Shown one piece after another: positions 7,308-46,382 of a stretch of 64,000 nt of DNA. The stretch comes from Trypanosoma brucei. Lineage: Eukaryota. The position numbers and the translations under genes are program-made. The stretch's first letter is position 1. Every line of letters starts with the position of its first letter. Location: NCBI GenBank assembly GCA_000002445.1, contig CM000208.1, positions 3,808,001 to 3,872,000 of the forward strand, written 5' to 3'. The notes under the pieces are model-generated. The model made no database searches and was not told the origin of the DNA. It saw only the letters and a program-made list of their open reading frames with translations.

Positions 7308-8861
7308 ATGTCTGGAGAAAACTTGAATAAATCGATGAGTGCTGAAAGGGTTGCTGGGTCGTTGTCCGTAGGTCATGGCGTAGATCATGGTTCTCGTAAA
7401 CGAGCTCGTTCTATTTGTTTGAAGCAAAATTTTTCTCGACTTTTGTACCAGATGGTTATTCGTCAGCTGCATCATGATGGTTTTCTTGCTGCTGCATCCG
7501 CTGTCGCAGACGCTACTAACGTTGTTGTTCCGAGGCTGGAGGAAAATGCTGATCGATTGTCGAAGGTGGTTAGTTGGGGTCTCGCTGTGGAGGAGAGCAG
7601 TGTGGTTGAAATTGAGAACTTCTTCAAATTTGAAGTTGTTGAGCGATATTTGAGTGCATCGAGGGTATATATGCCGCTACACCTATCAGAGAGTGCAAGG
7701 GTGGGATCCATGGCGTATCGTATGCGAGAGCGTTTTATTACCTCATCTCTAGGTGGTGTTGTTCGACGTCTGGCATTTTCTTCGGATGGTTCGCTTATTG
7801 CATGTGGGGGAACTGATGGTCTGTGTGCCATTTTTTCTTTGAATACAATTGAGGATCTCAGTGCCCTTGAAGAAGTGCGGCAGGAGCAGCACTTTAACGG
7901 ACTTGATGGGAGTAACCCTAGTAATATTGGGGTGGGCAACGCAAGCAACAAAATTACGGAGCTCGCTGAGGCCCGTCGCTTTCATGAACACACGCACTCT
8001 GTGGAGGCTATTTCCTTTCATCCAACCAAGCAGCTTCTTGTCACTGGAGGTTTCGAGGGAGATTTGTACATTCGTGACTACAGTCAACCAGACAACCACG
8101 TTGTACACAAATTACGTGATGCTTTTCCTGTACGTTCCGCCGTTTTTCATCCCTCTGGAGAATACGTGCTGTACGCTACAGATCACACCACGCCAAGGCT
8201 TCTGAACCTCCGGAGTGGATCAGTGGTGGCCCCTGTGGCACACTCCGATAACGCTGCAGCAACCTGCGTAACCGCGATGGCAGGAGGAAAGGGAGTAGCT
8301 CGTGGTGCTTCTCAGAGGAAAGGCTGTGACGCAGGCCACGCGGCTGCTCTATGTGACGTGGATTTTTCTCCCGACGGCCGGACCTTCGCCTCATGCGGTC
8401 TAGACGGATCACTGATTGTGTATGACGGAGTCAGTAGTCGCATTGTGGCGAAGGTAAACAATGCACACTCAAGTGTTCCGGTAACCAGCGTAAAATTTAG
8501 TCGAACTGGTAATATTCTCCTCACCGCGGGCATGGACTCAGTTGCTCGGCTGTGGGACCTGCGGCGTGGGGATGGTGGGTGGGGCTGTACAGAAGTTATG
8601 TCGTTCGGCGAGCCTGGAAAATGTAATCACCGCAGCTTCCGTGCTTCTTTCAGCTGCAACGAAAGCCACGTCCTCTCCCAGGACACTTCCCTGTTTGCCA
8701 TTCACGCACACTGCGTCTACACAGGGGATACCTCATACACACTTACGGTGCCCAACCACATGCAGCGGGGCTTTGCCCCTGCGCCTTTTAGTAATGTAGT
8801 CGTTAGCGGTGGCGACGACTCACGTATGCGGCTATGGACACCGGCATGGACCACGGCGTGA
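7308..8861 (+). CDS. CSTF50: WD40-repeat protein resembling cleavage stimulation factor 50-kDa subunit (CstF50).
   Basis: N-terminal segment LYQMVIRQLHHDGFLAAASAVADAT resembles the CstF50 dimerisation domain (human [21 protein letters not shown], recalled from memory). Several WD repeats follow, e.g. LLTAGMDSVARLWDLRRG and VVVSGGDDSRMRLWT. ATG verified at 7308. Confidence 0.6.
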   Translation: MSGENLNKSMSAERVAGSLSVGHGVDHGSRKRARSICLKQNFSRLLYQMVIRQLHHDGFLAAASAVADATNVVVPRLEENADRLSKVVSWGLAVEESSVVEIENFFKFEVVERYLSASRVYMPLHLSESARVGSMAYRMRERFITSSLGGVVRRLAFSSDGSLIACGGTDGLCAIFSLNTIEDLSALEEVRQEQHFNGLDGSNPSNIGVGNASNKITELAEARRFHEHTHSVEAISFHPTKQLLVTGGFEGDLYIRDYSQPDNHVVHKLRDAFPVRSAVFHPSGEYVLYATDHTTPRLLNLRSGSVVAPVAHSDNAAATCVTAMAGGKGVARGASQRKGCDAGHAAALCDVDFSPDGRTFASCGLDGSLIVYDGVSSRIVAKVNNAHSSVPVTSVKFSRTGNILLTAGMDSVARLWDLRRGDGGWGCTEVMSFGEPGKCNHRSFRASFSCNESHVLSQDTSLFAIHAHCVYTGDTSYTLTVPNHMQRGFAPAPFSNVVVSGGDDSRMRLWTPAWTTA

Positions 8862-9834
8862 AATATTGTCCCCTTGGTGGCCCAGTAACTTCAAACTAGT
8901 TCTGCTTTTTAATGGCGGAAAGGAACGACAAACTCTTGTGGATTCCTCTTGCCTGGAGCCTCGATCAAGTGACAGAGCGTCGTTGAAAAGGAGGAAACAA
9001 AGGGGAGGGCGGTTGAATCTTACATCTGGGATCTGCATTCGATGCCATTTGTGGACCTCTGTTGAGCCATGCTTCGTTAGAGCCAACAAGGCCCAAAAGT
9101 TGCAACCGTTACAGGAGACACGTGTATCATGTTGTGAATCGGTTTCGTATGATTGACCGCGCTGGTGGCATAACGATTTCAGGTCCCCCTCTTTTATTAT
9201 TCTTAAATCATTTTCACGCGCGCACATTGCTTCCACTTGCGGGCGGGGGTTATGCATTTCATCAAAATGGGCAGTCTGCTTCTGATTAAATTTCAACTGA
9301 TCGTTATCTTGTTCTCTTCTTATGTGTTTTCGCTGATTACCCTTCGTCTTCATCGTGAATTCCTCACCCGTCCTACAAAGGACGGAAAGCAAGGCCAGTG
9401 GGAGAAGGTAGGGTCAAACCTTGAAGATAAGTTCATAATTATCCGCCTAGCAAAAGAAAGGGGAAACAGGCCAGTGTGAAAGGGGAGTGAGGGAAGCTGC
9501 AGCAGTGCTCGCTCCCTTCCTCTCTTCTGTTGAAGCTACTGGCCGCCGCGGGGCGTCGAGGTGTTTCGTGGGGGAGGCGAAGGGAAAGGGAAAAGAGGTT
9601 TAGTTAGTCCCTGCAAGAAGCAGGGGCTCATTGCTATTCACTGTGCCACTTCTCTGGGGGTGGGGCACGGCAGCTGTGACTTTCGGAAGTAACCAAAGGA
9701 AAGCTGGTGCATTAATAACGGCACGTAGAAGTACAACACGGGGAGGAATCTTTTTGCTGTCTGGAGTGCGACCCAAGGCAATTTCGTGTATACAGTAGGT
9801 AATTCCTGACGTATCCTTTTGATACCTGTAAATT

Positions 9835-12800
9835 ATGTCTGGTCTGACTTCACACAACATCTCAGCTACATCTATTCGTGTGCATGGAATCACACGTGAA
9901 CGTGATATGTGCGTTTTCTGCCGGAAGCGCTCTTCGCCACCACCTAATGATCCGCTGGCACCAGTATTTGCCTTCTTCTCGCTGGTTGACTGCCGTCACT
10001 ACGCGTGCCAACCGTGTGCTCTCGTGCATTGCGACAACGCTGGGCGGCATATACGTTGCCCCGCGTGTTGCGCGATTTCTCGTCTCGCGCAGTCGGGCCG
10101 CCGTCGCGGAAACCGTGTGGATGAACGAGTGCCAATAGATGACGGCGTATCGTCGGCGGCATCGCAGAGCTCAAAAAGAGTGTTGGCCCCACCGAAGCGT
10201 TCACTCTCCGTCACTGACCGGCGGAGACGTACGTCATCTGTTCAGTTCTCAACAAACTTAACATCGCCCAGTGGGCAGAAGGAGGCCCTCAGCACCGGCG
10301 GCTCTAACACGTCATTGACACTTGCCGCGGTCGGCCGGCTGCCAACCGACCCTAACTATAGCAAAGGCAAAGGGGATGAAGGAGGAACCGTTGCGGCCTT
10401 CAGCGAGGAGGAACGAATATCGGTCGATTTGTACACCATTAAGGGCACCGCTGCAAAACGCCCGCGTCGCACAACAGCTGAACGTGCCCGCAGTCAGCCG
10501 CTTCCTCCGGCAGAATATCGCTATTTGCCACCACCAACGCCGTTCCATCGCCCGCCGCCGCTAGTAATTCACACGATTGAGGAGGAAGAAGAGGTTGCGG
10601 CTTCATTCCAACTCATTGTAAGGGAAATCGAGCAAACTATCGCTGCTACGCTAGTAAAGGAGGCAGATGAGCGTGACACAATCGGAATTGCGGAAGCACA
10701 CCGCCGCAACGTCCTTTCAAAATTACGTGAAGAGGATGAAAGAAAGAGATTTGCAGCACATCACGAACTCAATGACGAGTTTTCTGATGCCAAATTAAGT
10801 CCTCGCACAACAACAAACGCATCAGACGGCCAAGTCAGTGAAACATCCGATGAAGGAATGTCAGAACTCTCAACACAACAAGACTCAATTCAAAAGAACT
10901 ACAAACAACCCATAGATCAAAAAGCAATGATCACAAAGGAAAGAACAGGAACACCTACCGCAGCGGAAAAACAAACAAAACACCAACAACAAACAATCAC
11001 CAAACAGAACACTGAAGAAGAAAAAAAAGAAGCAAAAAATGAAAACAATAAGGAGAGTAAAAAAAAACGGCGTGAGCGTGTTGAGGTTGCTACATGGGAT
11101 TCGGAACAACAGCTGCGGCTCTTTGAACAACTTATGGATCTCGCTCGTGATGAACAACAGCACCGTGCCAAAATACAGCGTGACGAAACTCGTATGCATG
11201 CGGAAATGGAACGAAGTGAGGCTAGCGATGTTGCAACAATCAAGGCTGCAATGGAGGCCATGGCAGAGTCAGCACGTAGAGAGCAGGAGGAATTATTGCG
11301 TGATGAGAAGGAAGAACGCTACACCATCCAAGAGGATGAGCGACGGCTACGGCGCAACATAACGCGACAGAGCGCGGAGCTCTCACTCGACGTCAGCATG
11401 CAGCATGTGCAACAACGTGGTAAGGAGGACGCACAAAGGGAATTGGATATGCTAAGGGTTGCACTGGAATCAACTGCTGTTGAAACCACTTCGCGCGCTC
11501 GCCTCAACCTCATTGTAACGGAGGAACTGAGGGCACGTGATTCCCTGTGCAGTGACGAAGCAAGTGAACGAGCCATGCACGCAGCAGAAGAGCGACGTGA
11601 GCGTGTTGAGGTTGCTACATGGGATTCGGAACAACAGCTGCGGCTCTTTGAACAACTTATGGATCTCGCTCGTGATGAACAACAGCACCGTGCCAAAATA
11701 CAGCGTGACGAAACTCGTATGCATGCGGAAATGGAACGAAGTGAGGCTAGCGATGTTGCAACAATCAAGGCTGCAATGGAGGCCATGGCAGAGTCAGCAC
11801 GTAGAGAGCAGGAGGAATTATTGCGTGATGAGAAGGAAGAACGCTACACCATCCAAGAGGATGAGCGACGGCTACGGCGCAACATAACGCGACAGAGCGC
11901 GGAGCTCTCACTCGACGTCAGCATGCAGCATGTGCAACAACGTGGTAAGGAGGACGCACAAAGGGAATTGGATATGCTAAGGGTTGCACTGGAATCAACT
12001 GCTGTTGAAACCACTTCGCGCGCTCGCCTCAACCTCATTGTAACGGAGGAACTGAGGGCACGTGATTCCCTGTGCAGTGACGAAGCAAGTGAACGAGCCA
12101 TGCACGCAGCAGAAGAGCGACGTGAGCGTGTTGAGGTTGCTACATGGGATTCGGAACAACAGCTGCGGCTCTTTGAACAACTTATGGATCTCGCTCGTGA
12201 TGAACAACAGCACCGTGCCAAAATACAGCGTGACGAAACTCGTATGCATGCGGAAATGGAACGAAGTGAGGCTAGCGATGTTGCAACAATCAAGGCTGCA
12301 ATGGAGGCCATGGCAGAGTCAGCACGTAGAGAGCAGGAGGAATTATTGCGTGATGAGAAGGAAGAACGCTACACCATCCAAGAGGATGAGCGGCGGCTAC
12401 GGCGCAACATAACACGACAGAGCGCGGAGCTCTCACTCGACGTCAGCATGCAGCATGTGCAACAACGTGGTAAGGAGGACGCACAAAGGGAATTGGATAT
12501 GCTAAGGGTTGCACTGGAATCAACTGCTGTTGAAACCACTTCGCGCGCTCGCCTCAACCTCATTGTAACGGAGGAACTGAGGGCACGTGATTCCCTGTGC
12601 AGTGACGAAGCAAGTGAACGAGCCATGCACGCAGCAGAAGAGCGACGTGAGCGTGTTGAGGTTGCTACATGGGATTCGGAACAACAGCTGCGGCTCTTTG
12701 AACAACTTATGGATCTCGCTCGTGATGAACAACAGCACCGTGCCAAAATACAGCGTGACGAAACTCGTATGCATGCGGAAATGGAACGAAGTGAGGCTGA

Positions 12801-41025: not shown

Positions 41026-41371
41026 CGGTGACGGCATCCCCGTGCCGCTTAACCCCGTTAAGAGAGGGAGAGTTGGCACACACGCACACAGCGAACACTG
41101 ATTTTGCTGTTGTCAATAGAAAGTTATGTGTACGCATCTGTACGCACATTGATTCTGCAAAGGCCTTCGCAGATTACAATTCTGCTGCCGGGCTTGCTGC
41201 TTCATCACTGTCGGCGCTTTCAACATATTTGAACATGAAATGCTGTGATATTCTCATCAAACTGATGGCAGTTTTTTTTTTTCACTCAATCTTTATTTCG
41301 TGATTTGAGAAATTCTGTGCTTAGGAAGGATAAAGGAAGGGAATATACATAAATAAAGTAATATATAATAT

Positions 41372-41592
41372 ATTACTTTCCTCAGGCATAAAATGTTTGG
41401 ACGACGCGTTTACGCCAGTGCGGCAGTTCCCCGCCGTATGTGGCCGGCACTTCACATTCAGAGCAGTAGCCAAGCACTGCGTATCCTTCCTTCACTCGCA
41501 CCACTTCACCCGACTATAACTCGGCATGTTGCACTTGTGTCCGCCCCGCTCACAAGCCTCTCCGCGGTCGGTTTGTGTGAATCCTCAACGGA
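41372..41592 (+). repeat. Copy 1 of a 221-bp perfect direct duplicate; the second copy is at 45868-46088.
   Basis: ttactttcctcaggcataaaATGtttggacgacgcg...gtgtgaatcctcaacgg is identical base for base in both copies. Each contains an ATG (41393 and 45892) starting the same 66-aa N-terminus. Confidence 0.9.
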
Positions 41593-41725
41593 GTTATGCA
41601 AAGATACAACGCAGTCGCAGGGCTGTGTCGTCCTGTCGCTCATCTCAGCCTCGTGGTGCCAACCGCACAATTTTCTCCCTCCATTTGTGGCAGAGTGCAC
41701 AGGGGTAAAGAAAGTGCTTCACTGA
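41393..41725 (+). CDS. Small ORF (110 aa) with a presequence-like N-terminus encoded in the duplicated segment.
   Basis: MFGRRVYASAAVPRRMWPALHIQSSSQALRILPSLAPLHPTITRHVALVSAPLTSL is Arg- and Ser-rich with no acidic residues, resembling a mitochondrial targeting presequence. The unique C-terminus begins after residue 66. Confidence 0.3.
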   Translation: MFGRRVYASAAVPRRMWPALHIQSSSQALRILPSLAPLHPTITRHVALVSAPLTSLSAVGLCESSTELCKDTTQSQGCVVLSLISASWCQPHNFLPPFVAECTGVKKVLH

Positions 41726-42421
41726 AAAGCTTCTTCTCATTATAAAAGAGGGGGGCTGAAGGTGAAGGGCCCCCCCCCCCAACAGGGAGGTTTGAAGGGA
41801 TGAGATGCTTGGATCGCCTACATGTCGTTCGTGTTGATCGGCTATTCTTCACAGCTGCATCATGTCCTCGCTTCACTTTCATTTCAACGGACGGTGGGGC
41901 TTTCCTCCCCGTGCATGCGCTCCCCTCACCACTCCGTCGCGGGTGTGCGCTCACAAAGCACACAAGTTTGTAATGTGTGCTTGTGTACATACGCACGTGC
42001 GTGTGCCCGCGCTCTTATCGCAGCAGTAGTAAATTTAAGTGGCCAACAAAAGTGATACTAAAACTACAAAAACAGTCGTTTGGGAGTAAAAATGTCTTGG
42101 TATGAGTGGGCCCGGACTGTGTGGCCCAACCAGAAAAACTTTTGGCATTTTCTCGCCCATGAGCCCACGCCCGAAGGGGTGAGGAAAATTCATTACATAC
42201 ATTTATGCATACACATCTTACCCCCTCCCATTGTGGATGTTACATTCCTCTTCTTTTCAACGGGCGGCCCAATCCCTTAACGAAGCCGCCTTCTCACCTC
42301 GTGAAGAGCATCATTTGAGGGCTAGCGTGTACGTATACCTTCTTTCCGTATTTGCTACCCGCGCTTATGGTTTTTGTAACGGTGAAAGAAAAGGCAACTA
42401 ATATAATTGCTTGCATATATT

Positions 42422-42424
<3 letters not shown>

Positions 42425-42461
<37 letters not shown>
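42425..42461. repeat. (TA)18 microsatellite.
   Basis: Read directly from the sequence, about 110 nt upstream of the GUP1-like ATG. Confidence 0.95.
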
Positions 42462-42464
<3 letters not shown>

Positions 42465-42572
42465 CGCACAGCATTAACTGCTGCTATTGCCTCATAAACT
42501 TTCGAGAAGTGCAACCTCAGCGTACAATTCCGTGCAGGTGTGTGAATTGGTGAGGGGAGAGTGCTGTTGGGT

Positions 42573-44402
42573 ATGTCAGACGACGAGCACAAACGACACC
42601 CGCACGCACAACGTTCCCGCCATTCAACAGCGTCGCCAGGCATGATCGGTCATGATGGAAACTTCATGGAGAGCTTCAAAGACATGCTGGGCGATATATA
42701 TGCCCCGCTGAAGACAGGTCTGAAGTTGGAGCACGTAATTTATAATGCATGTTATATGCTTCTCATGTTATATGGTTTCTTTGATGTTGCAGATGCGTCA
42801 AAGCAGTGGGCGTCAGAATTCTACATTGAGCCACCGCGTTGGAGCATACTAACCATAACCTCTCTGGGTTCCACCGGCTATAACGGGACTGGGGACGCGC
42901 AATGGACTTCCATCGACAGGGGGTTTGGTCTCCTCCTCTCTGCGCTGGCGTTATTCGTTATCGGGGCCCGTGGTGTCCGCAGTGTTTTCCATGGGGAAAA
43001 TGGCGTGAAGGCGCTCCAGCGGTACTACTTGTTCGCCGGATTCCTCTTCACAGCCTTCTTGCACGGGCCCATGTTCTGGCTGCCGATTACCATAATTGCA
43101 CTTAACTACGTCTTCATTATAATCTTGCTGAAGATCAAGATGCCTCACTGGGTGCACATGGCAGTTATGTGGACGGCAGTGGTGTCGCTGATGCTTAGTG
43201 TGGGATACTATGGAGGTCGGTTGATCATTGGTCCGAGGAGACTTGGCTTTTGGGGAGGCATGGCCAGCTGGGTTCCCACGTTTAACATGTCTATCCTTCG
43301 CATGATTTCGTTTAACACAGATCTGTATGAAGCGATACACGCGAGCGCTCCTGCGCGGGCAACAACTACGAGGAAACACGATAACGGTTGCTTGGATTGT
43401 GCACGACTACGTGACAAACACCCGGAAAAAGAAGTAACTGCCGTGCGGTGTTACAAGTTTCGTTCAGAATACCCCCGCAATGTCAATGAGTACAATCTGC
43501 TGAGCTACATGGCGTACATGCTCTACCCGCCGCTGTACATCGGTGGGCCCATGTCTTCCTTCAATGCGTTTGCTTCACACTGCCAATATTCTACTGTTGC
43601 CATGACGAGGTCGCAGTTGATCGTTTACGGAATATTCATTATTATTCTATACGTTACTCAGGTGAGCATGCTACACTTTGTGTACCTGAGTGCTCTGCGG
43701 CAAAGGGGCGATCTCGTCATGAAACTGAGCACAACGCAAGCTGCTTTCATGCTGTACTATTCCTTGGCCTTCCTTTGGCTGAAGTTCTCCTTGGTTTGGA
43801 AGACGGGTCGCTTGGCTGCTGTTGCGGACGGGGTTGATGTGCCAGAGGACATGCGGCGCGCCTACAGCAACACGTTAAGTGTGCGAGACTTCTGGCGTGA
43901 TTGGCATGCCTCATTTAATGTGTGGGTTGTGCGCTACATGTACATTCCCATGGGGGGAAATAGACGGAAGTATTTCAGCATCCTTCCCATATTCTTCTTC
44001 ATTGCGGTATGGCATGATTTGGAACTCCACCTTATTGAGTGGGCGGTATGGATTATTGCCTTCTTTTTAGTTGAGCTTTTTGTTGGGTATCTATGGGGCC
44101 TGCCGTTATTTGCGCCGGTACGACACTCAAAGTACGAGCGCCTGCTAAGAAGTCTTGCTGGAATGGTCAGTGTTTTTGGACTTACAATCACGAACATGAT
44201 CGGCTTCGCTACCGTGGCAGCACCTCACGGAGGTTCATTGACAGCGCAGATTATTCTGCATATCCTTGGGACTCTTAACTTAACTCTATTCTTCTTCTTT
44301 TTACTATTTTTCTTTTTGCTCTCTGCCACGGGTGTTTTGCTTCGTGATGAAGAAGCAAATCAAATAAAGCAGCTCAAGGAAAGGTACGGTATAGTTCGTT
44401 GA
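42573..44402 (+). CDS. MBOAT-family membrane-bound O-acyltransferase, GUP1/HHAT-like; GUP1 is the GPI lipid-remodelling acyltransferase in trypanosomes.
   Basis: Multi-pass hydrophobic protein with the MBOAT signature DFWRDWHASFNVWVVRYMYIPMGGNRRKYF, matching GUP1/HHAT FWRxWHxSxxxWxxxYxYIPLGG. A conserved His lies in the downstream WHDLELHLIEW. The track start at 42561 is GTG; the ATG is at 42573. Confidence 0.8.
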   Translation: MSDDEHKRHPHAQRSRHSTASPGMIGHDGNFMESFKDMLGDIYAPLKTGLKLEHVIYNACYMLLMLYGFFDVADASKQWASEFYIEPPRWSILTITSLGSTGYNGTGDAQWTSIDRGFGLLLSALALFVIGARGVRSVFHGENGVKALQRYYLFAGFLFTAFLHGPMFWLPITIIALNYVFIIILLKIKMPHWVHMAVMWTAVVSLMLSVGYYGGRLIIGPRRLGFWGGMASWVPTFNMSILRMISFNTDLYEAIHASAPARATTTRKHDNGCLDCARLRDKHPEKEVTAVRCYKFRSEYPRNVNEYNLLSYMAYMLYPPLYIGGPMSSFNAFASHCQYSTVAMTRSQLIVYGIFIIILYVTQVSMLHFVYLSALRQRGDLVMKLSTTQAAFMLYYSLAFLWLKFSLVWKTGRLAAVADGVDVPEDMRRAYSNTLSVRDFWRDWHASFNVWVVRYMYIPMGGNRRKYFSILPIFFFIAVWHDLELHLIEWAVWIIAFFLVELFVGYLWGLPLFAPVRHSKYERLLRSLAGMVSVFGLTITNMIGFATVAAPHGGSLTAQIILHILGTLNLTLFFFFLLFFFLLSATGVLLRDEEANQIKQLKERYGIVR

Positions 44403-45702
44403 GCTGCTTTATTTGATTGGAAACTGAGAGCTGATTGCGCTTCAGTAGTTGCACATTCCTTGTGTGTTCGCGCAACACATGAACCGTAAGATGTCAGACG
44501 TCTTGTGTGAAGTTTTTATACTTCATTTCTGAAAATCGTATAGTCATTTATCCTCTATCTCATCATTATTCTTTCCCTTCCTCTTTTGTTGCCGTTACTT
44601 AAATGGCTTGTTTGATTGTGTGTTTGTTTTCTTCTCGCTTAACCGTTGAATTCTATATACTTTGTTAATATTTTTTAAAAAAAAAAAAGGAAAAGGAAAG
44701 AAAAAAGGAAAACGGAATAAATGCACGGTGTGGGGGCATAATGAATTCCACAGAATGAAAAAAAAGGGGGGAAAGTAACTTGTAGGCAAGAAGCGGATCA
44801 AAATATCCGTAAAGGCGGTGGAATGAAAACAAGTAAAATAGAGGGCGTACGAAACGCTTTAAAAAGATAAATAAATAAATAATGGCGGTGTAGTCGAATA
44901 TATTTAACGATTATGACAAAGAGGGAAAAAAGAAAAAGAAAAAGGTAAGAGAAGGGCAGTCGGATTGTAGGGGTGTTTGTATGCACTACCCGACTCCGCT
45001 TTTGCGGCATAGTGATGATGACAGATGCGGGCAAGTATCTAAGTAAAATTAGTTCAGTCATCAATTTGCTCCTCTACTACCGCTCTTCGTCTGATTCCTA
45101 TTTTCGCTATGTGTTGTCATTTTCTTTTTTTTCTTTGTTTGCTTGTCTTTCTATCAGTGTTTTTTGTTTCTTTTTCTTTTTTATTTTTGTTTTTTCTCTT
45201 GATTTATCTCTTTTTTTAATCTTCACATTTCATTACTCGAAGTTGATTGAATGGAATTAACACATGGAATTGCAGCAAAAAGCAGAACACGGAATTGGAT
45301 AAAAATGGATTAGGCGAAACGCTTCACAAATGCTATTTGCATTTTGGCTCATACCAGACCGGGTAACCACCGCTACCGTCATCAACACTGCTGCCGCTGC
45401 TGCTGCTGAATCCTGAGTGAAGGTGCCAAAAAAAAAAAAAAAGAGAAAAGAGAAGAGAAGAAAAGAAAAATCAAACAAAAGAAAAAAATAGCACGGCAAC
45501 ATTTTCTCACCGCGACGAAGTCACCCAACAGCGCTTAAGACAAACAGCCAGTGGAAGATGTATTAAGTGTAATCGTACCGCTCCATTATTTTACGGTGCT
45601 GTTTTATTCCTTTCATTCTTTTCTTCGCCCCTTTGCTAGGCAGTGAAACGGGAATATACATATATGTGTGTATGTGTGTGTGTTTTTACTGTTGGTGCTT
45701 AG

Positions 45703-45770
45703 GCTGCTTTCTTTTCTTTTTATTTCTTCTTTTTTTGTTTTGCTTCCTATCTTCATGTCACTACAACCAC
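45703..45770 (+). promoter_or_regulatory. Long polypyrimidine tract upstream of the second presequence ORF: putative splice acceptor region.
   Basis: ggctgctttcttttctttttatttcttctttttttgttttgcttcctatcttc is followed by A-rich sequence and AGs before the ATG at 45892. Confidence 0.3.
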
Positions 45771-45867
45771 TCTCCAAAAAAATAAAAACAACAACAACAA
45801 CACAATCCCAAGAAATCGACAGAGAAGGGGCTCAACCACAGTTCCACTCGCGCGTTGCTTTTTTACT

Positions 45868-46088
45868 CATTACTTTCCTCAGGCATAAAATGTTTGGACG
45901 ACGCGTTTACGCCAGTGCGGCAGTTCCCCGCCGTATGTGGCCGGCACTTCACATTCAGAGCAGTAGCCAAGCACTGCGTATCCTTCCTTCACTCGCACCA
46001 CTTCACCCGACTATAACTCGGCATGTTGCACTTGTGTCCGCCCCGCTCACAAGCCTCTCCGCGGTCGGTTTGTGTGAATCCTCAACGG
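45868..46088 (+). repeat. Copy 2 of the 221-bp direct duplicate.
   Basis: Identical to 41372-41592. Downstream sequence diverges immediately after cctcaacgg. Confidence 0.9.
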
Positions 46089-46273
46089 CGCTGGAACCTT
46101 TACAAGGCGATGGCAGGGGATTCCTCGTCTCACATGCAGGCGGTTGGTACAATTGCGCACGCGCGTTGCTCACAAATGTCAGTACGGCTCCTATGAGGAC
46201 TATAATTTGGAAACTACACAATAAAGCGCAAGCCCCGTGGTCGCTACCGCGCCTTCAAACTACCCGAGAATAA
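45892..46273 (+). CDS. Small ORF (126 aa) sharing its first 66 aa with ORF 41393 and then diverging.
   Basis: Same N-terminus, then ALEPLQGDGRGFLVSHAGGWYNCARALL... A good polypyrimidine tract lies upstream. Confidence 0.3.

Positions 46274-46339: not shown

Positions 46340-46379
<40 letters not shown>
46340..46379. repeat. (TA)20 microsatellite.
   Basis: Read directly from the sequence, about 70 nt downstream of the stop of ORF 45892. Confidence 0.95.

Positions 46380-46382
<3 letters not shown>

What the first reader, a model, noticed from the sequence alone, without database searches (positions are those of the whole stretch)
41372..46088. Identical 221-bp direct repeats flank the GUP1-like gene and each seeds a small ORF with the same presequence-like 66-aa N-terminus
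The segment runs from 24 nt of 5' leader through the ATG and 198 nt of coding sequence. It is duplicated base for base at 41372 and 45868, and the downstream sequences then diverge completely, giving different C-termini of 44 and 60 aa. The shared N-terminus (MFGRRVYASAAVPRRMWPALHIQSSSQALRILPSL...) has the composition of a mitochondrial import presequence. This looks like a partial gene duplication, or gene conversion of a 5' module, generating two chimeric small proteins with a common targeting signal. Alternatively one copy is a dead remnant. As perfect 4.5-kb-spaced direct repeats, they are also substrates for recombination that would excise or amplify the GUP1-like gene, as occurs in Leishmania.
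Basis: partly seen in the sequence, partly recalled or inferred. Interest (0 to 1): 0.6.

Follow-up and report, generated by a model that had tools for sequence, protein, structure and literature searches.

The report
Gene-converted 5' ends of two small genes
The two identical 220-bp repeats are the starts of two old, translated small-protein genes that bracket GUP1 in every trypanosomatid examined, and repeated gene conversion keeps those starts identical within each species, which is a clean but not revolutionary case of concerted evolution.

Summary
The repeat is real: 220 bp, 100% identical, at 41372-41591 and 45869-46088, with two copies in the window. The window is Trypanosoma brucei TREU927 chr10:3879479-3943478. 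The repeats are the 5' ends (21 nt of leader plus 66 codons) of Tb927.10.15900 (110 aa) and Tb927.10.15920 (127 aa), which flank GUP1 (Tb927.10.15910).

This is not a recent partial duplication, and neither copy is dead. The same pair brackets the MBOAT/GUP1(-PAP2) block in T. vivax, T. theileri, T. melophagium, T. cruzi and Leishmania major. Each copy has its own C-terminal motif, recognisable across the trypanosomes.

In each of the six species compared as DNA, the two 5' ends are 96-100% identical, including synonymous sites. Between species, 9-21 of 38 codons carry synonymous changes. That pattern is concerted evolution by gene conversion restricted to the 5' module.

Published ribosome profiling shows footprints on both ORFs, higher in procyclic forms. 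TargetP and MitoFates flag 15900 as mitochondrial. No mass-spectrometry detection was found.

The N-terminal ~38 residues define an uncharacterised trypanosomatid-wide small-protein family with no Pfam or PDB relative. I rate it a new member of a known kind, of moderate interest.

The parts
41372..41591 (+). Repeat copy 1: 21 nt of 5' UTR plus the first 199 nt of the Tb927.10.15900 coding sequence. This is the current extent of the gene-conversion tract.
45869..46088 (+). Repeat copy 2: 21 nt of 5' UTR plus the first 199 nt of the Tb927.10.15920 coding sequence. It is 100% identical to copy 1.
41393..41725 (+). ORF1 = Tb927.10.15900 (EAN78948.1, Q387S4), 110 aa. This is the 'type B' paralogue that lies upstream of GUP1.
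   Evidence: ORF; exact match to the annotated protein; chr10 3920871-3921203, ribosome footprints; orthologues
41654..41686 (+). Type-B motif WCQPHNFLPPF (residues 88-98). It is conserved as ..QPH.F..P(F/C) in trypanosomes and as SSPH in Leishmania.
45890..46273 (+). ORF2 = Tb927.10.15920 (CBH16844.1 in T. b. gambiense), 127 aa. This is the 'type A' paralogue that lies downstream of GUP1. The 172-aa GenBank model (EAN78950.1, from the ATG at 45755) is over-extended.
   Evidence: (start moved +135 nt, 'Internal splice site only'; chr10 3925368-3925751; footprints)
46190..46219 (+). Type-A motif PMRTIIWKLH (residues 101-110). It is conserved as C(M/L)PLRTI(I/V/L)W in T. congolense, T. vivax, T. 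theileri, T. melophagium and T. grayi, with C replacing the final W in T. cruzi.
41310..41310 (+). Major spliced-leader acceptor of Tb927.10.15900 (first transcribed base after an AG; 83-nt 5' UTR). It lies outside the repeat.
   Evidence: (3920788)
45813..45813 (+). Major spliced-leader acceptor of Tb927.10.15920 (after an AG; 77-nt 5' UTR). It lies outside the repeat.
   Evidence: (3925291)
42573..44402 (+). GUP1 / sn-2 acyltransferase, Tb927.10.15910 (MBOAT family). This is the gene bracketed by the pair.

Best explanation
The repeats are the 5' ends of two ancient paralogous genes, Tb927.10.15900 (type B, upstream of GUP1) and Tb927.10.15920 (type A, downstream). The duplication predates the Trypanosoma/Leishmania split. 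Both genes encode small proteins of 110 and 127 aa. Each protein has a common N-terminal module followed by its own conserved C-terminal motif. The module reads as a very short Arg-rich mitochondrial presequence, MFGRRVY|ASA, followed by a conserved ~30-residue segment.

The base-for-base identity in T. brucei is not a sign of recent origin. It is the current footprint of recurrent intrachromosomal gene conversion, by homologous recombination between the two loci, confined to the 5' module. The tract's 3' end always falls inside the coding sequence (+103 to +211). I infer that this is because homology runs out there, and because conversions that overwrote a type-specific C-terminus would be selected against.

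In the T. brucei lineage, a B-to-A event after the split from T. congolense appears to have extended the shared block from about codon 45 to codon 66.

What is shown: synteny, within-species identity, between-species synonymous divergence, and ribosome occupancy. What is inferred: the recombination mechanism, its direction, mitochondrial import, the cleavage site, and any biochemical role.
For: 1. Identity: the window matches T. brucei TREU927 chr10 proteins exactly. Coordinates tie to Tb927.10.15900/15910/15920.

2. Orthologous pairs: T. congolense, T. vivax and T. theileri each have one type-A and one type-B protein. T. grayi, T. melophagium, T. cruzi and L. major do too.

3. Synteny: the order type B - MBOAT(s) - PAP2 - type A - PDZ protein holds in T. 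vivax, and continues into a cation-efflux gene in T. theileri and T. melophagium. T. cruzi has type B - MBOATs - PAP2 - type A. L. major has the same order with the two copies 35.6 kb apart.

4. Sharp identity blocks between the two paralogues within each species:
- T. brucei: -21..+198, 100%
- T. theileri: -104..+211, 95.9%
- T. melophagium: at least -1300..+204, 99.7%
- T. vivax: 0..+103, 97.1%
- T. cruzi: -18..+120, 97.1%
- L. major: -31..+110, 97.2%

5. Codon comparison over the first 38 codons: 9-21 synonymous and 5-17 non-synonymous codon differences between species, against 0-3 synonymous within a species. This shows purifying selection on the protein together with homogenisation of silent sites.

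6. T. theileri vs T. melophagium: dN/dS is about 0.06-0.09 for the module, 0.23 for the type-A C-part and 0.50 for the type-B C-part. Both T. melophagium copies share the same 3-codon deletion.

7. Direction of conversion: T. brucei residues 46-66 match T. congolense type B at 10/21 positions and type A at 4/21.

8. Translation (Jensen et al. 2014): normalised ribosome-footprint counts are 565-775 in procyclic (PCF) and 89-215 in bloodstream (BF) forms for 15900, and 1190-1476 (PCF) and 294-472 (BF) for 15920. Only 63% and 36% of reads are multi-aligners, so the unique parts are covered. Spliced-leader acceptors are mapped for both genes.

9. Targeting: Tb927.10.15900 is flagged by TargetP and MitoFates. 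The composition fits.

10. Family: a profile search finds 70 representatives at E<=1e-3. Nearly all match from at or near their own residue 1, or from an internal Met in N-terminally extended models.
Against: - No conversion event has been observed directly, and no population data were examined.
- T. congolense and T. grayi were compared only at the protein level.
- Neither protein appears in the mass-spectrometry tables I could search. These were the mitochondrial proteome columns of Peikert Suppl. Data 2a, the importome files held, the Zikova 2017 table, hyperLOPIT and the TrypTag supplements. Several of these files were truncated when stored.
- The type-B C-terminal dN/dS of 0.50 is only weakly below 1.
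- AlphaFold is confident only for residues 11-30. Combined with no Pfam or PDB hit, this means function, import and cleavage site are inference.
- The multi-aligner percentages pool mRNA and footprint libraries.
Confidence: 0.85

Rival explanations
1. A recent, T. brucei-specific partial duplication of a 5' gene segment created one or two chimeric ORFs.
For: The two copies are 100% identical over 220 bp, with abrupt ends and unrelated flanks.
Against: The same two genes, with the same type-specific C-termini and the same positions around the MBOAT/PAP2 block, exist in T. vivax, T. theileri, T. melophagium, T. cruzi and L. major. Each species has its own species-specific shared block. Independent re-duplication at the same site in six lineages is not parsimonious.
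Confidence: 0.03
2. One copy, most plausibly type B / ORF1, is a decaying remnant. It looks intact only because conversion keeps refreshing its 5' end.
For: The type-B C-terminal dN/dS is 0.50 between T. theileri and T. melophagium. After the QPH.F..P motif, the tails differ in length and sequence between species. No MS detection was found.
Against: An open frame of 105-131 aa and the ..LPL..(Q/S)(P/S)H.. motif persist from T. brucei to Leishmania, although silent sites are saturated. Ribosome footprints are present and 37% of reads are uniquely aligned. A spliced-leader acceptor is mapped.
Confidence: 0.07
3. The 220-bp block is a dispersed repeat or mobile-element fragment, or a conserved structured RNA or DNA regulatory element. 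On this reading it is not primarily protein-coding sequence.
For: It is a perfect repeat that includes some 5' UTR.
Against: - There are only 2 copies in 64 kb.
- T. brucei has three family genes in the protein databases searched.
- Between species, changes concentrate at third codon positions while the amino acids are kept.
- No Rfam family reaches its gathering score, and none of the weak sub-threshold matches (E<=1) falls in the repeats.
- The RNA folds no better than shuffles, z = +1.12.
- The multi-aligner fractions (63% and 36%) fit a two-copy block covering 60% and 52% of the coding sequences.
Confidence: 0.02
4. The identity is maintained mainly by selection and not by neutral homogenisation. 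Both proteins must present exactly the same N-module to a shared partner, or must release the same N-terminal peptide. Conversion is then the means and selection the cause.
For: The module has dN/dS of about 0.06-0.09, far below the C-parts. It is the only region conserved family-wide and the only region AlphaFold models confidently. The pattern persists in every lineage sampled, even across 35.6 kb in L. major.
Against: Identity extends to silent sites and into the 5' UTR, and to at least 1.3 kb of intergenic DNA in T. melophagium. Protein-level selection does not explain that. The third paralogue has a diverged module (22 non-synonymous codon differences in 38), so identity between family members is not obligatory.
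Confidence: 0.2

Closest known systems
Partial (chimaeric) gene conversion among T. brucei gene duplicates (Jackson 2007, BMC Evol Biol 7:54; PMC1855330)
   Same: Paralogues on one polycistronic strand are homogenised over part of their length, which gives concerted evolution. 21 of 47 tandem arrays showed chimaeric copies.
   Different: Here the two genes are not adjacent array members. They are separated by unrelated genes, by 4.5 kb in T. brucei and up to 35.6 kb in L. major. Only the 5' ~100-220 coding nt are converted, and the C-termini are unalignable. The arrangement is conserved across Trypanosomatidae. The paper does not mention this pair: no hit for Tb10.61.03.. or 'glycerol uptake'.
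5'-restricted gene conversion between duplicated human fetal globin genes (G-gamma/A-gamma). This comparison is from my own knowledge and was not tested here.
   Same: It is a classic case in which a conversion tract covers the 5' portion of two tandem paralogues and ends abruptly. The paralogues within a species are therefore more alike at the 5' end than at the 3' end.
   Different: The globin paralogues are homologous along their whole length and encode near-identical proteins. Here the 3' halves encode different, separately conserved peptides.
Repeat-mediated extrachromosomal amplification or deletion in Leishmania (direct repeats flanking loci).
   Same: Direct repeats bracket a gene block (GUP1/MBOAT and PAP2) in the geometry needed for circular amplicon formation or deletion.
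   Different: The repeats here are short coding modules (104-320 bp in five of the six species), not the dispersed non-coding repeat families used in Leishmania. I found no amplicon, deletion or junction evidence. The bracket has been stable since the trypanosomatid ancestor.
Short trypanosomatid mitochondrial presequences (MFRR...-type, about 8-9 residues). The family description is from my own knowledge; the predictor flags are from PMC5436138.
   Same: The N-terminal MF(G)RRV(Y/F)|AS is Arg-rich with no acidic residues and fits an R-3 type cleavage context. Tb927.10.15900 is TargetP- and MitoFates-positive.
   Different: Conservation continues for about 30 residues beyond any plausible cleavage site (IPR.MW..LHIQS..QA.R.LPSL.PL). 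The module is therefore more than a targeting signal. Import and cleavage have not been demonstrated.

Membership tests
Concerted evolution by partial gene conversion | Paralogues within a species are more alike than orthologues between species, including at synonymous sites. | tested here: met
   0-3 synonymous codon differences within a species against 9-21 between species over 38 codons. Searches agree.
Concerted evolution by partial gene conversion | The duplication predates the speciations, shown by orthology or synteny of both copies. | tested here: met
   the order type B - MBOAT(s) - PAP2 - type A holds in five other species. Searches show the type-specific C-terminal motifs.
Concerted evolution by partial gene conversion | A discrete tract with abrupt boundaries and unconverted flanks. 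| tested here: met
   blocks of 104-320 bp, and at least 1505 bp in T. melophagium. Sequence outside the blocks shows only scattered base matches and no blastn alignment.
Concerted evolution by partial gene conversion | Lineage-specific indels or substitutions shared by both copies. | tested here: met
   a 3-codon deletion is present in both T. melophagium copies and absent from both T. theileri copies. Searches show species-specific residues shared by both copies in T. congolense, T. theileri and T. grayi.
Concerted evolution by partial gene conversion | Direct observation of conversion events, for example a polymorphism transferred between copies within a population. | not tested
   No T. 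brucei population data were available in these tools. The T. b. brucei, T. b. gambiense and T. equiperdum proteins are identical, so they carry no information on this.
MPP-cleaved mitochondrial presequence protein | An N-terminal Arg-rich, acid-free segment, positive in dedicated predictors. | tested here: met
   5 Arg and 0 Asp/Glu in the first 35 aa. TargetP and MitoFates columns are marked for Tb927.10.15900 in Peikert 2017 Suppl. Data 2a.
MPP-cleaved mitochondrial presequence protein | Experimental mitochondrial localisation, import or detection. | tested here: inconclusive
   Neither protein is marked in any proteome column of Suppl. Data 2a or found in the other importome files held. Neither is in the Zikova 2017 table, hyperLOPIT or the TrypTag supplements. 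Several of these files were truncated, and small proteins yield few peptides.
Dispersed repeat / mobile element | Many copies at unrelated loci, not tied to one gene family. | tested here: not met
   2 copies in the window; three family genes in T. brucei, the third with a diverged module and lying outside the window. A whole-genome DNA scan of T. brucei was not possible with these tools.
Thioredoxin fold (a lead from a weak PDB hit to ORF1) | A conserved CxxC (WCGPC-like) active site and a full-length Trx fold. | tested here: not met
   E = 0.09 only; the Cys is not conserved (the orthologous position reads WFQPH, FIQPH, LSQPH, CSQSH or FSSPH); the type-B profile has no PDB hit at E<=10; no fold is predicted.
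Leishmania-type repeat-mediated amplicon/deletion substrate | Direct repeats flank the locus, and junction or copy-number evidence shows rearrangement between them. | not tested
   The geometry is present. No read-level or copy-number data were available. MBOAT copy number differs between species (roughly one to four or more), but both small genes are always retained.

The most novel reading that the evidence does not exclude
The conserved unit of this trypanosomatid-wide family is the N-module itself: a very short presequence plus a ~30-residue mature segment, which is the only part AlphaFold models with confidence. On this reading, trypanosomatids, which essentially lack cis-splicing, maintain 'one N-module, alternative C-modules' by keeping duplicated 5' ends identical through selectively favoured gene conversion. 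This would be a genomic substitute for alternative splicing. The two GUP1-flanking proteins would dock the same mitochondrial partner with different effector tails, or both would release the same peptide.
Probability: 0.15. Interest if true: 0.65.

Novelty: new member of a known kind. Interest (0 to 1): 0.4.

Why it matters
The finding turns what looked like a young local duplication into a well-delimited natural example of 5'-restricted concerted evolution. That pattern has been sustained across the Trypanosoma-Leishmania divergence, with a measurable tract in each of six species. This makes it useful for studying homologous-recombination tract lengths and boundaries in trypanosomatids.

It also defines an uncharacterised, translated small-protein family, more highly expressed in procyclic forms, with a strikingly conserved N-terminal module and a predicted mitochondrial destination. 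T. brucei has three members.

There are practical consequences too. The 172-aa GenBank model of Tb927.10.15920 hides the presequence. N-terminal tagging would be uninformative. Short reads or peptides from the shared module cannot be assigned to one gene.

It does not change any major concept.

Tried and rejected
1. Thioredoxin lead. ORF1 gave a weak hit to plant thioredoxin h (E 0.09, 'SASWCQPHNFLPPF' vs 'WCGPC...'). I rejected it because the Cys is not conserved among type-B orthologues, the type-B profile finds nothing in the PDB at E<=10, and no fold is predicted.

2. Pfam scan of eight members: no family at E<=1. PDB searches with ORF2, the family profile and the third paralogue found nothing significant.

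3. AlphaFold of ORF2 and ORF1 with family alignments gave mean pLDDT 61 and 59 and pTM 0.26-0.27. Only residues 11-30 are confident. I did not run fold searches because the models are too poor.

4. Structured-RNA reading. No Rfam family reaches its gathering score, and none of the weak matches falls in the repeats. The fold z-score is +1.12.

5. N-module fused to large proteins:
- P0030 (L. donovani 'MBOAT', 632 aa) is a spliced gene-model artefact, with a 4343-nt range for 632 aa.
- P0041 (1751 aa) is a junk tandem-repeat translation.
- I did not follow up P0061 (657 aa).

6. Search for a PAP2 remnant between GUP1 and ORF2 in T. brucei: none found.

7. The third paralogue (P0106) is not in the window.

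8. Literature by gene id. No main-text mention of Tb927.10.15900 or 15920. The guessed old ids (Tb10.61.0370/0380/0390) were wrong leads; the true old id of 15900 is Tb10.61.0395. The TrypTag supplements, the Zikova 2017 table and hyperLOPIT gave no localisation.

Full report
**Observation.** The repeat exists as described, with small corrections. It is an exact 220-nt direct repeat at 41372-41591 and 45869-46088, 4497 nt apart. A 53-nt probe finds only these two sites in the 64-kb window, against 0 expected by chance. It comprises 21 nt of leader and 199 nt of coding sequence (66 codons plus 1 nt). ORF1 is 41393-41725 (110 aa) and ORF2 is 45890-46273 (127 aa). Outside the block, the two loci compared in register show only scattered base matches, and no further alignment is found by blastn.

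**Identity of the locus.** Exact protein look-up places the window in Trypanosoma brucei brucei TREU927 chromosome 10.
- ORF1 is EAN78948.1/Q387S4.
- The middle gene is the GUP1/sn-2 acyltransferase EAN78949.1.
- ORF2 is CBH16844.1 (127 aa, T. b. gambiense), and is contained in the 172-aa model EAN78950.1.

All are annotated 'hypothetical protein, conserved'. GUP1 is Tb927.10.15910. Coordinates in Jensen et al. 2014 give Tb927.10.15900 = chr10 3920871-3921203 and Tb927.10.15920 = 3925368-3925751. These map exactly onto 41393-41725 and 45890-46273, so the window is chr10:3879479-3943478.

**The pair is ancient and syntenic.** A homology search with ORF2 found two proteins each in T. congolense, T. 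vivax and T. theileri. The alignment separates two types.
- Type A (ORF2-like) carries a C-terminal motif C(M/L)PLRTI.W.
- Type B (ORF1-like) carries ..QPH.F..P(F/C).

Further members were found in T. grayi, T. melophagium, T. cruzi, Leishmania spp., Phytomonas, Porcisia and Angomonas.

The fetched loci show the same gene order around the pair:
- T. vivax: kinase, a 411-aa gene, type B, MBOAT, PAP2, type A, PDZ protein.
- T. theileri: type B, two MBOATs, PAP2, type A, PDZ protein, cation-efflux protein.
- T. melophagium: the same as T. theileri.
- T. cruzi: type B, two MBOATs, PAP2, type A.
- L. major: the upstream copy, an MBOAT array, PAP2 and the downstream copy, with the two small genes 35.6 kb apart.

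T. brucei has a single MBOAT and no trace of PAP2. The duplication therefore predates the Trypanosoma/Leishmania split. A T. brucei-specific partial duplication is excluded.

**Concerted evolution of the 5' module.** In each of the six species compared as DNA, the two paralogues share a sharply bounded block that starts at or upstream of the ATG and ends inside the coding sequence:

| Species | Block (relative to ATG) | Identity |
|---|---|---|
| T. brucei | -21..+198 | 100% |
| T. theileri | -104..+211 | 95.9% (3 gaps) |
| T. melophagium | at least -1300..+204 | 99.7% |
| T. vivax | 0..+103 | 97.1% |
| T. cruzi | -18..+120 | 97.1% |
| L. major | -31..+110 | 97.2% |

Over the first 38 codons, species differ by 9-21 synonymous and 5-17 non-synonymous codon changes. 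The two copies within a species differ by 0-3 synonymous changes. Both T. melophagium copies carry the same 3-codon deletion relative to both T. theileri copies. Species-specific residues are shared by both copies in T. congolense, T. grayi and T. theileri.

Saturated silent sites between species, identical silent sites within species, conserved amino acids and abrupt boundaries together are the signature of recurrent gene conversion restricted to the 5' module. The T. brucei 220-bp repeat is simply the present tract.

T. brucei residues 46-66 resemble T. congolense type B (10/21) more than type A (4/21). The block also ends immediately before the type-A motif ALEPLQ. I infer that a B-to-A conversion in the T. 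brucei lineage extended the shared region from about codon 45 to codon 66.

**Both genes are functional.** The type-specific motifs persist across the trypanosomes sampled, and type B is still recognisable in Leishmania, despite saturated silent sites. Between the close relatives T. theileri and T. melophagium (dS about 0.33-0.5), dN/dS is 0.06-0.09 for the module, 0.23 for the type-A C-part and 0.50 for the type-B C-part.

Published ribosome profiling gives these normalised footprint counts:
- Tb927.10.15900: 775/565/574 (procyclic), 133/89/142 (slender bloodstream) and 185/160/215 (cultured bloodstream).
- Tb927.10.15920: 1476/1299/1190, 298/294/339 and 472/413/335 in the same order.

Only 63% and 36% of reads are multi-aligners, so the unique C-terminal parts are covered. 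Both genes are called up-regulated in procyclic forms.

Spliced-leader acceptors are mapped at window positions 41310 and 45813, each after an AG and both outside the repeat. The same study moved the 15920 start by +135 nt to the ATG at 45890, because only an internal splice site exists. The 172-aa model is therefore over-extended. The 'dead remnant' alternative is unlikely, though type B is the less constrained copy.

**What the proteins are.** There is no Pfam family and no sequence relative among solved structures. AlphaFold is confident only for residues 11-30.

A profile search of 1.84 billion representatives finds 70 proteins at E<=1e-3. Most are 100-135 aa. Nearly all match from at or near their own residue 1, or from an internal Met in N-terminally extended models. 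They share MF.RRV(F/Y).S..IPR.M(W/Y)..LHI.S..QA.R.LPSL.PL and fall into several C-terminal classes.

T. brucei has a third, diverged member (P0106, C-terminus ...FMRVISDTMHTYSVLL) that lies outside the window and is on record on the TREU927 chr10 contig. In the T. equiperdum locus fetched, it sits next to an eIF4E gene. It is not converted with A or B.

The first 62 residues of ORF1 and ORF2 lack acidic residues and are rich in Arg, Ser, Ala and Leu. Tb927.10.15900 is marked TargetP- and MitoFates-positive in the mitochondrial reference set of Peikert et al. 2017. That table is a reference set, not a detection. I found neither protein in the proteomic tables I could search.

My reading is inference. 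MFGRRVY|ASA looks like a very short trypanosomatid presequence with an R-3 cleavage context. Residues of about 8-38 would then be a conserved mature module, because a pure targeting signal would not normally be this conserved.

**Rivals.** The evidence above argues against a recent duplication, a pseudogene copy, and a dispersed or RNA element. For the RNA reading specifically, no Rfam family reaches its gathering score, none of the weak matches falls in the repeats, and the RNA folds no better than shuffles, z = +1.12.

Whether selection for an identical module drives the homogenisation remains open. Against a purely protein-level cause, identity extends into UTR and intergenic DNA.

The bracket has been stable since the trypanosomatid ancestor, while MBOAT copy number varies between species.

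**Comparison with known systems, and verdict.** Partial gene conversion among T. brucei duplicates is documented: 21 of 47 tandem arrays (Jackson 2007). That paper does not mention this pair, and no paper in the library names Tb927.10.15900 or 15920 in its main text. An automated orthogroup already lumps 15900 and 15920 together.

This is therefore a new, unusually clean and deeply conserved member of a known kind of process, acting on an uncharacterised small-protein family. I score interest at 0.4.

Noticed in passing
window 44403-45868 (between GUP1 and ORF2): T. vivax, T. theileri, T. melophagium, T. cruzi and L. major all have a PAP2-family gene here. T. brucei has none: tblastn finds no remnant anywhere in the window. 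The interval is AT-rich, low-complexity sequence, with GC 0.40 for 44001-46000.
   Followed up: partly
window 45755-45889: The TREU927 GenBank model of Tb927.10.15920 (EAN78950.1, 172 aa) starts at an upstream ATG that lies 5' of the mapped spliced-leader acceptor (45813). Jensen et al. moved the start by +135 nt. The long model hides the presequence-like N-terminus, which may explain why only 15900 appears in the mitochondrial reference set.
   Followed up: yes
window 42573-44402 (GUP1) compared with 41393-41725 and 45890-46273: Regulation runs in opposite directions within one transcription unit. GUP1 ribosome footprints are 6-12 in procyclic forms against about 300-1985 in bloodstream forms. 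Both flanking small ORFs are 3- to 5-fold higher in procyclic forms.
   Followed up: no
window 42417-42464 and 46340-46381: (TA)n microsatellites of about 40-48 nt lie downstream of each small ORF, 0.7 kb and 67 nt after the stops. They are probably ordinary intergenic simple repeats and are not part of the shared block.
   Followed up: no
L008 (T. melophagium) 17-1518 and 8701-10205: In T. melophagium the block shared by the two paralogues is at least 1505 bp (99.7%). It covers the whole upstream intergenic region up to the end of PAP2 and runs to the edge of the fetched locus. It is either a recent large conversion or duplication, or an assembly effect.
   Followed up: partly
L009 4001-8343 (L. 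donovani RHLD01000033.1): TPP41749.1 ('MBOAT', 632 aa) joins the first 81 codons of the upstream small gene to the downstream MBOAT across about 2.4 kb. It is a spliced gene model in an organism with almost no cis-splicing, so it is almost certainly an annotation artefact.
   Followed up: yes
L005 6001-6378 (T. equiperdum); on record on the T. brucei TREU927 chr10 contig, outside the window: This is a third family member (125 aa, C-terminus FMRVISDTMHTYSVLL), next to an eIF4E gene in the T. equiperdum locus. Its N-module is diverged and unconverted. Its class is widespread, including a T. congolense protein annotated 'hypothetical protein, unlikely' and a Porcisia protein.
   Followed up: partly
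L001, L004, L003/L007, L008: MBOAT/GUP1 copy number between the two small genes varies: 1 in T. brucei and T. vivax, 2 in T. theileri, T. melophagium and T. cruzi, and at least 3 in L. major. T. theileri and T. cruzi also have an extra MBOAT or MBOAT fragment upstream of type B.
   Followed up: no
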